This document shows positions 6,001 through 9,000 of a stretch of DNA of 64,000 nt, piece after piece. Source of the stretch: Escherichia coli O127:H6 str. E2348/69. GTDB lineage: Bacteria > Pseudomonadota > Gammaproteobacteria > Enterobacterales > Enterobacteriaceae. Positions within the stretch are counted from its first letter, which is position 1. Each line of letters opens with the position of its first letter. The stretch lies in NCBI RefSeq assembly GCF_000026545.1, contig NC_011601.1, one strand, 5' to 3'. Made by a program: the position numbers.

Positions 6001-9000
6001 ATTCGGCACGCTGGGGGGTGGGCAAGCCGTTATATCAGGATCTGATTTCCCGCACAAAAGCGGCATTGCAGAAAAATCCCAAAAACGTTCTGCTGGCCGT
6101 CTGCTGGATGCAGGGTGAGTTTGACATGAGCGCCGCCACCCACGTACAGCAACCTGCGCTGTTTACAGCCATGCTGACACAGTTTCGTGCTGACCTCTCC
6201 GTGTTTAACGCGCAGTGCCATGGTGGCAGTGCTGCAGATGTGCCGTGGGTTTGTGGTGACACGACGTATTACTGGAAAAATACATACGCTACCCAGTACG
6301 ACACCGTGTACGGCGGGTATAAAAACAGGGAGAGTGAGGGCGTTTATTTTGTGCCCTTCATGACAGACGGTAACGGCGTCAATACCGCCACTAACGCGCC
6401 GGCAGAAGATCCGGATATTCCGGTATCAGGATATTACGGTGCGGCATCGAGAACGAATGGAAACCAGGTATCATCAAACCGCCCGACACATTTCAGTTCA
6501 TGGGCGCGCAGGAGCATTATTCCGGATCGTCTGGCAACCGCTATTCTGAACGCAGCCGGGCGCACCTCAGCCTTCATCAGTGGTAAGGCACCGGAAATCA
6601 AACCCTCGTCCGGCGGCAACACGCCATCGGGTCCGTTTGCAGATACGTCCGTTCGCACAATCTCCCTGCTGCCGGCAGCCGGAGAGGCTGCTGCGCAGGG
6701 CTGGAGCATTAAGGATGGCGGAATTCAGTTGTCAGATGGTGTATTTAAGATCACCAAGCAGAGCAATAAAACCTGGTCCCTGACGCATCCGGTGGATGAC
6801 GCAATTACCCTGCTGACACAGGGCGGCAGACTGACCTGTAAGTTCCGCCTGTCAGGCGCACTGACCAACAATCAGTTCGGGCTGGGGATTTATCTGTATA
6901 CGGATGCTCCCGTTCCTGATGGTGTGGCGATGACGGGTACCGGTAATCCGTTCCTGATGTCGTACTTCACTCAGACCACTGACGGCAGAGTGAATCTGAT
7001 GCATCACAGGAAAGCCGGAAACACGAAGCTGGGGGAGTTCGGCGATTACGGTAACGACTGGCAGACGCTGGAGCTGGTGTTCACCGCCGGCAGTGCCACG
7101 GTTACTCCGAAACTGAATGGAGTGGCTGGCCCGGCATTCCAGGTTATAAAAGACAGTCTGACACTGGGACTGAATGCGCTGACGCTGACGGATGTTACAA
7201 AAAATGCAGCGTATGGCGTTGAGATAGAAAGTCTGATGCTGGAGATAAATGCACCGGCAGCATAATAAAAAAAGCCAGCGACTGACCTGAAAAAGAAGAC
7301 GCTGGCTAAAAGGCCTTATATGTTTGTAGAGACTTATTTTTCACAGACAGCAATGATGCCTGTCAATATATTATCAATATGCGGATTGTTTCAGTTACAG
7401 ATGCCTTATTAAGGAAAAAAACAGCCAGCACTGACTTTCGGTGGAGAGGTGCTGGCTCAAAAGGATAGATGTACTTCACATGTTGCTTCTATATGGCAGT
7501 ACATTTTCTGACAGACAGTGACGGATGTTGTCAAGATATTGTGTCATTTATAACCTGAATCAGGGGAGGCCGGAATGTTATCTGGCATTTTTAGCAGAGC
7601 CTGAATGCCATAATCACGGCTCCCGGCGTTGGCCGTCAGTGGGTGACACTGGCGGCTTTTTTGTTTTTCTTTACTTTCATTTTCTGTCGGCGGTGACGGA
7701 GACATACATCAGATGGAAAAAATCACAACAGGTGTGTCATACACCACGTCAGCGGTGGGGACGGGATACTGGTTACTGCAGCTGCTGGACAAAGTCTCTC
7801 CGTCCCAGTGGGTGGCAATAGGTGTGCTGGGAAGTCTGCTGTTTGGCCTGCTGACGTATCTGACAAATCTTTATTTCAAGATTAAAGAAGATAAGCGTAA
7901 GGCTGCGAGAGGTGAATAATGTCGCCGTCATTACGCAAGGCTGTTGCAGCTGCTATTGGTGGTGGGGCTGTTGCCATAGCGTCTGTGCTCATCACTGGTC
8001 CAGGTGGTAACGATGGTCTGGAAGGTGTCAGCTACATACCATACAAAGATATCGTTGGCGTATGGACTGTATGTCACGGACACACCGGAAAAGACATCAT
8101 GCCCGGTAAAACGTATACCGAAGCAGAATGCAAAGCCCTCCTGAATAAAGACCTTGCCACGGTCGCCAGACAAATTAACCCGTACATCAACGTCGATATA
8201 CCGGAAACAACGCGCGGCGCTCTTTACTCGTTCGTTTACAACGTGGGCGCTGGCAATTTCAGAACATCGACGCTTCTTCGCAAAATAAACCAGGGCGATA
8301 TCAAAGGCGCATGTGATCAGCTACGGCGCTGGACATACGCTGGCGGTAAGCAATGGAAAGGGCTGATGACTCGCCGCGAGATTGAGCGTGAAGTCTGTTT
8401 GTGGGGGCAACAATGAGCAGGGTAACCGTTATTATCTCCGCTCTGGTTATCTGCATTATCGCCTGCCTGTCATGGGCTGTTAATCATTACCGTGATAACG
8501 CCATCGCCTACAAAGAGCAGCGCGATAAAGCCACATCCATCATCGCTGATATGCAGAAGCGGCAACGTGATGTAGCAGAACTTGACGCCAGATACACAAA
8601 GGAGCTTGCTGATGCTAATGCGACTATCGAAAGTCTCCGTGCTGATGTTTCTGCTGGGCGTAAGCGCCTGCAAGTCTCCGCCACCTGTGCAAAGTCAACG
8701 ACCGGAGCCAGCAGCATGGGCGATGGAGAAAGCCCAGGACTTACAGCAGATGCTGAACTCAATTATTACCGTCTCCGAGGTGGAATCGACAAGATAACCG
8801 CGCAGGTTAACTACCTGCAGGAATACATCAGGACGCAGTGCTTAAAATAATTTTAATTTCACTGAAATTTAACAAGTGACTTTCAGGAAAATGCCTCGCA
8901 GATGCGGGGCATTTTTGTACCGGTATTTCACCGCGCACCGCAGCGCACAATAAACACCGAACCTGACCCTTTGGAATGGGCCTTTGAGGATACCAGTTAG

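What the first reader, a model, noticed from the sequence alone, without database searches (positions are those of the whole stretch)
7266..7570. Tandem duplicated ~150-bp modules, each ending in a minus-strand terminator hairpin, between nanS-p and the holin (candidate sRNA pair)
Two diverged copies share a core (TTTTCACAGACAGCAATGATGCCTGTCAATATATTATC versus TTTTCTGACAGACAGTGACGGATGTTGTCAAGATATTGTGTC). Each ends (7273-7306; 7420-7460) in a GC-rich stem (GCCAGCG...CGCTGGC; AGCCAGCAC...GTGCTGGCT) preceded on the plus strand by an A-run, so on the minus strand each is a hairpin followed by a U-tract. No protein-coding gene on the minus strand would use these terminators. The arrangement fits two paralogous small RNAs transcribed antisense to the late operon; prophage-encoded regulatory sRNAs are known from this part of lambdoid prophages.
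Basis: seen in the sequence. Interest (0 to 1): 0.5.

Follow-up and report, generated by a model that had tools for sequence, protein, structure and literature searches.

The report
Known prophage sRNA PasA plus paralogue
The two repeated ~150-bp modules between the prophage sialic-acid esterase gene and the holin gene are real, but they are already-described Hfq-binding small RNA genes (PasA, and the EcOnc52-type RNA next to it) read against the phage late operon, so the finding is correct but not new.

Summary
Two diverged tandem modules (7267-7416 and 7417-7566, period 150 nt) align far better than shuffled controls. Each ends in a stable GC-rich hairpin followed by a U-run on the minus strand.

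The Northern probe for the EPEC sRNA PasA (Pearl Mizrahi 2021) matches 7424-7448 exactly. It places PasA on the minus strand at about 7499->7415 (85 nt). Its published minor 236-nt form ends at about 7264, which is the module-1 terminator.

Module 1 matches the EHEC Hfq-CRAC site EcOnc52 (Tree 2014); EcOnc51 is the PasA homologue. RIL-seq chimeras also map to the 3' end of module 1.

It lies upstream of the published 5' end and carries an invariant TTGACA at -35..-30, so it is most likely each module's promoter. The RNAs are therefore about 66-85 nt.

The only possibly new point is that module 1 is a diverged tandem paralogue of PasA with its own promoter-like element. A 2026 preprint states that pasA copies do not arise by tandem duplication.

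There is no Rfam model and no match to AgvB or AsxR. Interest is low.

The parts
7415..7499 (-). PasA sRNA, major 85-nt form (module 2). It has a variable 5' body and a terminator hairpin followed by U7.
   Evidence: The PasA Northern probe GCCAGCACTGACTTTCGGTGGAGAG matches 7424-7448 (+) exactly. The published E2348/69 coordinates 743499->743415 map here with an offset of 736000, derived from the RIL-seq target site CUGAUGCUGGA at 743233 = window 7233. Mapping is good to +/-1-2 nt.
7423..7457 (-). PasA intrinsic terminator hairpin. A 9-bp stem AGCCAGCAC/GUGCUGGCU is followed by G and then U7 (7421->7415). The published PasA seed GCCAGCACCU lies in its 5' arm.
   Evidence: Folding. Seed from PMC8550237 Fig. 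S5 text. Relatives carry compensatory changes, C-G to U-A in L041 and A-U to G-C in PasC.
7506..7534 (-). TTGACA sits at 7534->7529, then a 17-nt spacer, then a weak -10 (TCAGAA, 7511->7506).
   Evidence: TTGACA falls at -35..-30 relative to the published 5' end. The 67 columns upstream of the 5' end are 97.5% identical among 17 distinct alleles, against 82.5% for the transcribed 5' body. The consensus scan does not call this site because the -10 is weak. Inferred, not mapped.
7264..7331 (-). Module-1 RNA of the EcOnc52 type, predicted at about 66-68 nt. It has a 24-nt single-stranded 5' part and a terminator hairpin followed by U7.
   Evidence: The Sakai Sp4 EcOnc52 Hfq-CRAC peak 1181998-1182075 (-) corresponds to window ~7255-7332. 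RIL-seq RNA2 fragments at 743267-743294 (-) correspond to window 7267-7294. Folding gives z = -3.5. The 5' end is predicted only.
7273..7307 (-). Module-1 intrinsic terminator hairpin (AGCCAGCG/CGCUGGCU), followed by U7 (7272->7266). It also forms the 3' end of the 236-nt PasA read-through form.
   Evidence: The published minor PasA 3' end 743264 maps to window 7264, which is 151 nt beyond the major end, one module period.
7338..7366 (-). Promoter-like element of module 1. TTGACA sits at 7366->7361, then a 17-nt spacer, then TGAAAA (7343->7338). It is homologous in position to the PasA element.
   Evidence: Alignment of module types. Invariant in 9 distinct module-1 alleles, though these are all close relatives. 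An overlapping alternative, CTGAAA-18-TATATT at 7394->7365, is reported by the scan. Inferred.
7264..7499 (-). Minor 236-nt PasA isoform. Transcription reads through terminator 2 and stops at terminator 1.
   Evidence: PMC8550237 Table S6, 85 / 236 nt. Fold of this stretch.
5415..7265 (+). Context: the nanS-p-type SASA sialic-acid esterase gene. Its stop codon abuts the U-tract of module 1. Its 3' end carries the published PasA target motif CUGAUGCUGGA at 7233-7243.
   Evidence: ORF list. Annotations of identical phage and E. coli records. Target table.
7713..7919 (+). Context: class II (pin)holin, followed by the SAR endolysin at 7919-8416.

Best explanation
The region holds two tandem, diverged copies of one kind of small transcription unit. 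Both point against the phage late operon.

Each unit has three parts: a sigma-70-type promoter (perfect -35 TTGACA, weak -10), a short RNA with a variable 5' part, and a Rho-independent terminator whose U-tail is the Hfq handle.

The holin-proximal unit is PasA, about 85 nt (7499->7415). PasA is a known Hfq-dependent trans-acting sRNA whose seed lies in the 5' arm of its terminator stem. Its terminator leaks. Read-through stops one module further on, at 7264, and gives the published 236-nt form.

The esterase-proximal unit is the EcOnc52-type RNA, predicted at about 66 nt (7331->7264). It is a paralogue that is probably also transcribed on its own.

Shown elsewhere by experiment: PasA's size, strand and Hfq dependence, its RIL-seq partners, and the Hfq-bound 3' ends at both terminators.

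Inferred here: the promoter assignment, the 5' end of the module-1 RNA, and its independent transcription.
For: Identity and strand of PasA:
- The PasA probe matches exactly, which fixes the strand.
- The published 85/236-nt coordinates land on the two U-tracts.

Independent support at both modules:
- The EcOnc51 and EcOnc52 Hfq-CRAC peaks, both with predicted terminators, sit at the module-2 and module-1 positions in Sakai Sp12 and Sp4.
- RIL-seq chimeras with escD map to 7267-7294, always as RNA2, as expected for an sRNA 3' end.

Locus and architecture:
- Zhu et al. 2026 describe the arrangement esterase-PasA-holin-lysozyme, including phage NC_011356, which is 99.4% identical to this region.
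- The duplication is statistically supported.
- Every allele folds into a stable hairpin plus U-run (-15 to -23 kcal/mol), with compensatory changes in the inner stem.

Promoter:
- TTGACA is invariant across four otherwise diverged cassette types: PasA, module 1, PasC and the EcOnc32 type.
- It sits at -35..-30 of the published PasA 5' end. The published PasC length (78-79 nt) puts its 5' end at the same relative position.
- Identity drops sharply at that point, from 97.5% upstream to 82.5% downstream.
Against: - No RNA data exist for this particular strain.
- The -10 elements are poor (TCAGAA, TGAAAA), and the consensus scan does not call these promoters.
- Zhu et al. state that the mature PasA 5' end arises by cleavage of a longer transcript. 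If so, the true promoter would lie further upstream.
- EcOnc52 was never tested by Northern blot. Its sequence is identical in Sp4 and Sp12, so the CRAC reads cannot be assigned to one copy.
- The Sakai coordinates come from an older version of the record.
- The EPEC authors treat the module-1 stretch as part of a minor PasA isoform, not as a separate gene.
Confidence: 0.85

Rival explanations
1. Only PasA is a gene. Module 1 is a decayed duplicate whose sole role is to act as a back-up terminator for PasA read-through. The Hfq-bound 3' ends seen there would all come from the 236-nt isoform.
For: - The EPEC study lists the stretch as the minor 236-nt PasA form.
- There is no Northern blot for EcOnc52.
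- The module-1 -10 is weak.
- The module-1 alleles sampled are too similar for their conservation to say much.
Against: - Module 1 keeps a perfect TTGACA at the same spacing as PasA, PasC and the EcOnc32 type.
- The 5' edge of the EcOnc52 CRAC peak (window-equivalent 7332) coincides with the predicted start at 7331.
- The module-1 RNA folds with z = -3.5 and has an sRNA-like layout.
- In RIL-seq the stretch shows all the sRNA criteria by itself.
Confidence: 0.3
2. The hairpins serve the plus-strand late or esterase transcript, as terminators or as 3'-end stabilising structures. The minus-strand reading would then be incidental.
For: The hairpins are nearly palindromic, so they also fold in the plus-sense RNA. 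The esterase is a moron-like insert that needs insulation from the lysis genes.
Against: - In plus sense the stems are followed by TAAAAGG and CAAAAGG, not by a U-run.
- A proper plus-strand terminator lies further on, at 7631-7667.
- The phage 434 annotators marked both hairpins as minus-strand terminators.
- Published Northern, RNA-seq and RIL-seq data show minus-strand RNAs ending at both hairpins.
Confidence: 0.05
3. The RNAs act mainly in cis. Both are perfectly complementary to the esterase-holin intercistronic part of the late transcript. They could therefore trigger its cleavage, or interfere by convergent transcription, and so tune esterase or lysis-gene expression.
For: - Convergent orientation inside the late operon.
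- A plus-strand RNA from this spacer appears in RIL-seq: pasA.E2348C_0689.IGR, 743494-743512 (+).
- PasA forms chimeras with the 3' end of the neighbouring esterase mRNA.
Against: No experiment addresses this. PasA has dozens of trans partners in the core genome and in virulence genes, which fits a trans-acting sRNA. My duplex calculation for the esterase site was no better than shuffled controls for PasA.
Confidence: 0.15

Closest known systems
PasA (pathogenicity-associated sRNA A) of EPEC E2348/69 prophage PP2 (Pearl Mizrahi et al., Sci Adv 2021, PMC8550237; Zhu, Shabalina and Storz, bioRxiv 2026)
   Same: - Module 2 carries the exact 25-nt probe sequence and matches the published 49-nt seed/terminator stretch apart from a one-U difference in a U-run.
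- Same strand and same position between esterase and holin.
- Same 85-nt size once the coordinates are transferred, and the same read-through end one module downstream.
   Different: Nothing of substance. This is the PasA allele, not the PasA-2-like allele seen in Sakai Sp12, whose first ~40 nt differ. The host here is a phage-434-like prophage (100% identity to OL657226), not PP2.
EcOnc52 and EcOnc51, orphan Hfq-binding sites of E. coli O157:H7 Sakai (Tree et al., Mol Cell 2014, PMC4104026, Table S2)
   Same: - EcOnc52 (Sp4) covers the stretch from the esterase stop through the module-1 hairpin to the predicted start. The sequence is near-identical, with a 2-nt shorter loop.
- EcOnc51 (Sp12) covers the PasA-type terminator.
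- Both are flagged as having Rho-independent terminators.
   Different: They were listed only as CRAC peaks, with no Northern blot, no 5' mapping and no function. In Sp4 an IS629 sits just upstream of module 1, so module 2 is missing there.
PasC (EPEC PP5) and the EcOnc32-type RNA (Sakai Sp3)
   Same: They are alternative cassettes at the same site in other prophages. They share the TTGACA promoter element, the outer terminator stem GCCAGC/GCUGGC, and the U-run abutting the esterase stop.
   Different: The PasC probe has no match in the window within 3 mismatches. Module 1 shares only the 3' arm of the terminator with PasC. The EcOnc32 type has an unrelated body and a longer stem.
Anti-sRNAs AgvB and AsxR (Rfam RF02702, RF02703)
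   Same: They are short, Hfq-bound, prophage-encoded RNAs convergent to the late operon. They have a variable 5' part and a conserved 3' terminator, and they lie in the same moron region.
   Different: They are unrelated in sequence and give no covariance-model match even at E <= 10. They sit upstream of the esterase gene, 3' of stx2B in Sp5, not between the esterase and the holin.

Membership tests
PasA sRNA | Sequence identity to the published PasA probe and to the seed/terminator segment | tested here: met
   The probe matches 25/25 at 7424-7448 (+), with no other match in the 64-kb window. The published stretch AAGUACAUCUAUCCUUUGAGCCAGCACCUCUCCACCGAAAGUCAGUGCU equals the minus strand here apart from one extra U.
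PasA sRNA | Intergenic position between the sialic-acid esterase and the holin/lysozyme genes, convergent to them | tested here: met
   Esterase at 5415-7265 (+) and holin at 7713-7919 (+), with the RNA on the minus strand. The published layout is '> < >'.
PasA sRNA | 3' stem-loop plus poly-U (intrinsic terminator and Hfq site) | tested here: met
   A 9-bp stem followed by G and then U7, present in both the MFE and centroid structures.
PasA sRNA | An ~85-nt Hfq-stabilised transcript detectable in vivo | not testable with these tools
   Shown for E2348/69 only. There are no expression data for this strain.
EcOnc52-type RNA (module 1) | Sequence and position equivalent to the Sakai Sp4 Hfq-CRAC peak | tested here: met
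   L002 1499-1576 corresponds to window ~7255-7332. The sequence is near-identical, with a 2-nt loop indel. Caveat: the coordinates come from an older record version.
EcOnc52-type RNA (module 1) | A discrete transcript with its own start | not testable with these tools
   Only a promoter-like element and the edge of the CRAC peak support it.
PasC sRNA | Match to the PasC probe CGCTGGCTAAAACGGGTAGATGTAC | tested here: not met
   No match within 3 mismatches. True PasC alleles were found in other loci, such as L053.
AgvB/AsxR anti-sRNAs | Match to Rfam RF02702 or RF02703 | tested here: not met
   No hit at gathering threshold across the window. No hit at E <= 10 in 7100-7800.
Rho-independent terminator | A GC-rich hairpin immediately followed by a U-run on the transcribed strand | tested here: met
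   Met for both hairpins on the minus strand and not on the plus strand. The simple scan catches only hairpin 1, because its loop limit is 8 nt.

The most novel reading that the evidence does not exclude
The PasA locus is a tandem pair of autonomous, paralogous sRNA genes. It is part of a swap-in cassette system at the 3' end of nanS-p, in which a fixed promoter and a fixed outer terminator stem frame a variable RNA body. Alleles of this cassette include PasA, PasA-2-like, PasC, the EcOnc52 type and the EcOnc32 type. This would amend the recent statement that pasA copies never arise by tandem duplication. It would also add one more Hfq sRNA, with a seed differing from PasA by 2-3 nt, to the EPEC/EHEC networks.
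Probability: 0.55. Interest if true: 0.3.

Novelty: already known. Interest (0 to 1): 0.15.

Why it matters
It matters little as a discovery. PasA and the EcOnc51/52 sites are published, and the esterase-PasA-holin layout has been surveyed across more than 1300 genomes.

Three practical points remain:
1. These RNAs are missing from Rfam and from genome annotations. Even the careful phage 434 record marks only 'terminators', so scans will keep rediscovering them.
2. The shared core gives a concrete promoter hypothesis for the whole cassette family.
3. The esterase-proximal copy may be an overlooked separate sRNA gene.

Tried and rejected
- **Rfam.** There was no hit in the region at gathering threshold. 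At E <= 10 there were only chance eukaryotic snoRNA/snRNA matches.
- **Fetching E2348/69.** Requests for NC_011601 and FM180568 failed because neither is in the collections. I transferred coordinates through a published RIL-seq target site instead.
- **PasC identity for module 1.** Rejected, because the probe does not match.
- **Kinship with AgvB/AsxR.** Rejected on sequence, covariance model and position.
- **Protein-coding readings.** Three ORFs overlap the spacer: 7705->7544 (53 aa), 7525-7821 (98 aa) and 7479->7363 (38 aa). None has a PHROG match. The 53-aa ORF is frameshifted in relatives.
- **PasA pairing with the esterase 3' end.** By RNAduplex this was no better than shuffled controls (206 of 500 as good). 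Module 1 scored better (6 of 500), but the predicted duplex is long and loopy, so I do not rely on it.
- **First module alignment.** It failed because of the scoring scheme and was redone.
- **Supplement search.** A search for the RNA sequences in the EPEC supplements found nothing.
- **Plasmid fragment.** A plasmid fragment carrying module 1 alone is a remnant flanked by IS elements. It does not decide whether module 1 is autonomous.

Full report
**Setting.**
The finding lies in the 447-nt spacer between a 616-aa SASA/nanS-p-type sialic-acid esterase gene (5415-7265, +) and a class II holin gene (7713-7919, +). The holin is followed by a SAR endolysin. The stretch 7200-7720 is 100% identical to phage 434 (OL657226) and 99.4% identical to Stx1a phages and phage YYZ-2008. 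It matches 1005 of 5426 complete E. coli genomes, with a median of 6 places per genome. The phage 434 annotators marked both hairpins as minus-strand terminators, and marked a third terminator on the plus strand just before the holin. They annotated no RNA gene.

**Checking the observation.**
- Hairpin 1 is at 7273-7307 and hairpin 2 at 7423-7457. Each is preceded on the plus strand by an A7 run.
- The repeat register is 150 nt.
- Module 1 (7267-7416) aligned with module 2 (7417-7566) gives 104 identities in 128 aligned columns. The z-scores are 7.6-8.7 against dinucleotide shuffles.
- Folded as minus-strand RNA, both hairpins are stable and are followed directly by a U-run.
- In plus sense the stems are followed by TAAAAGG and CAAAAGG, so they are not plus-strand intrinsic terminators.
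- The upstream minus-strand ORF (53 aa) is broken in close relatives and has no family match. No minus-strand protein gene explains the terminators.

**Identification of module 2.**
Rfam 15 has nothing for this region, but the literature does. Pearl Mizrahi et al. 2021 (PMC8550237, Table S6) describe PasA in EPEC E2348/69.
- It is a minus-strand RNA between the esterase gene E2348C_0688 and the holin gene E2348C_0689.
- It runs from 743499 to 743415 (85 nt, major form) or to 743264 (236 nt, minor form).
- It was validated by Northern blot, is destabilised without Hfq, and has 41 RIL-seq partners.

Its probe equals the plus strand at 7424-7448 with no mismatch, so the RNA is on the minus strand. 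A published PasA target site in the esterase 3' end (CUGAUGCUGGA, at 743233) is at window 7233. This gives an offset of 736000.
- PasA therefore maps to about 7499->7415, ending on the U-tract of module 2.
- The 236-nt form ends at about 7264, on the U-tract of module 1.
- The mapping is good to +/-1-2 nt, because it assumes no indel between the two genomes.

The same table notes EHEC homologues EcOnc51 and EcOnc52.

**Identification of module 1.**
Tree et al. 2014 (PMC4104026, Table S2) list both EcOnc51 and EcOnc52 as orphan Hfq-CRAC peaks with predicted Rho-independent terminators. Neither was tested by Northern blot.
- I fetched the Sakai loci. EcOnc52 (Sp4, 1181998-1182075, minus) runs from the esterase stop across the module-1 hairpin to window-equivalent 7332.
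- EcOnc51 (Sp12) covers the PasA-type terminator.
- RIL-seq chimeras with escD map to 743267-743294 (-), which is 7267-7294 here. They are always the second RNA of the chimera, as expected for an sRNA 3' end bound to Hfq.

So both terminators are used in vivo on the minus strand in near-identical prophages. One caveat applies: module 1 is identical in Sp4 and Sp12, so CRAC reads cannot be assigned to one copy.

**What the shared core is.**
It lies upstream of the published PasA 5' end.
- On the minus strand it reads TTGACA (7534->7529), a 17-nt spacer, TCAGAA, and then the start at about 7499. TTGACA therefore occupies -35..-30.
- Module 1 has TTGACA (7366->7361), a 17-nt spacer and TGAAAA. 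This predicts a start near 7331 and an RNA of about 66 nt.

To test this I pulled 80 IMG/VR loci through the holin protein and sorted their spacers. The site holds alternative cassettes:
- the two-module type seen here;
- a single PasC cassette (L053, which matches the PasC probe);
- a single PasA variant (L041);
- an EcOnc32-type cassette (L076, which matches the EcOnc32 probe);
- or none.

All four cassette types keep TTGACA at the same place, although their bodies differ. The published PasC length (78-79 nt) puts its 5' end at the same promoter-relative position.

Among 17 distinct module-2-type alleles, conservation changes sharply at the published 5' end:

| Segment | Mean pairwise identity | Variable columns |
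|---|---|---|
| 67 columns upstream of the 5' end | 97.5% | 9 of 67 |
| Transcribed 5' body | 82.5% | 20 of 42 |
| Terminator hairpin | 86% | 18 of 35 |

The stems stay paired through compensatory changes: C-G to U-A in L041, and A-U to G-C in PasC and module 1.

This is the pattern expected of a conserved promoter driving a fast-evolving sRNA. It remains an inference for two reasons. The -10 elements are weak, so the consensus scan does not call them. Zhu et al. 2026 also state that the PasA 5' end is made by cleavage of a longer transcript.

**Mechanism.**
The best reading is two autonomous minus-strand units, each consisting of a promoter, a short RNA and a terminator.
- PasA is a trans-acting Hfq sRNA. 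Its seed, unusually, lies in the 5' arm of the terminator stem.
- Its terminator has a G between the stem and the U-run, and it leaks into the next unit.
- Module 1 is either a second sRNA gene, which I favour at about 0.6, or only a back-up terminator.
- Both RNAs are fully complementary to the late transcript between the esterase and the holin. A cis effect is therefore conceivable, but it is untested.

**Novelty.**
The sRNA pair is already known. One small point appears unreported. Zhu et al. write that pasA copies are not products of tandem duplication, yet the stretch directly downstream of PasA is a diverged tandem paralogue with its own promoter-like element. That is a refinement, not a discovery. 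A literature search for follow-up work on EcOnc51, EcOnc52 or EcOnc32 found none.

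Noticed in passing
window 5127-5331 (+): A PasD/STnc100-like sRNA lies just upstream of the esterase gene. The PasD probe matches 5289-5312 with one mismatch. Rfam STnc100 scores 41.4 bits, below the gathering score of 47, with E = 1.3e-07. This reproduces the PasD-esterase-PasA layout of E2348/69 PP2. In phage 434 the same stretch is annotated as a small 'putative membrane protein' plus a terminator.
   Followed up: partly
window 7631-7667 (+), also 7569-7596 (+): A strong plus-strand terminator (11-bp stem followed by a T-run) lies 45 nt before the holin start codon, inside the late operon. 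It probably insulates the lysis genes from moron transcription in lysogens and is read through by Q-modified polymerase. Its T-run length varies among relatives.
   Followed up: no
window 7564-7570 and homologous positions in L041, L052, L053: The length of the G-run just upstream of the PasA promoter region is polymorphic: GGGGAGG here, and up to G9 in relatives.
   Followed up: no
L002 (Sakai Sp4) 1631-2703; L050; L065: IS629/IS3-family elements have inserted repeatedly into this spacer. One is just upstream of module 1 in Sp4, one is inside the PasA-variant terminator in L050, and one is at the module-1 U-tract in L065. The site looks like an insertion hot spot.
   Followed up: no
L085 (plasmid pO26_EH031_2) 1480-1720: A plasmid carries only the last ~90 nt of the esterase gene plus a diverged module 1. 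The fragment ends exactly at the module 1/2 boundary and is flanked by IS600. The stem keeps pairing through a G-U wobble.
   Followed up: partly
L076, L070 (IMG/VR loci), spacer before the holin: Other prophages carry an EcOnc32-type cassette at the same site, with the same TTGACA element and the same outer stem GCCAGC/GCTGGC. L070 also has an AgvB/AsxR-like segment just upstream of a truncated esterase remnant.
   Followed up: partly
window 46484-46628 (+): A molybdenum cofactor riboswitch scores 103 bits. The window therefore runs from the prophage into the host chromosome near moaA. From general knowledge of the E. coli map, this fits a lambda/434-type integration site.
   Followed up: no
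window 7233-7243 (+) versus 7449-7457 (+): The 3' end of the esterase gene contains CTGATGCTGGA, which nearly repeats the terminator arm GGTGCTGGC. It is the published RIL-seq target motif of PasA. Some relatives have the closer match GGTGCTGGA.
   Followed up: partly
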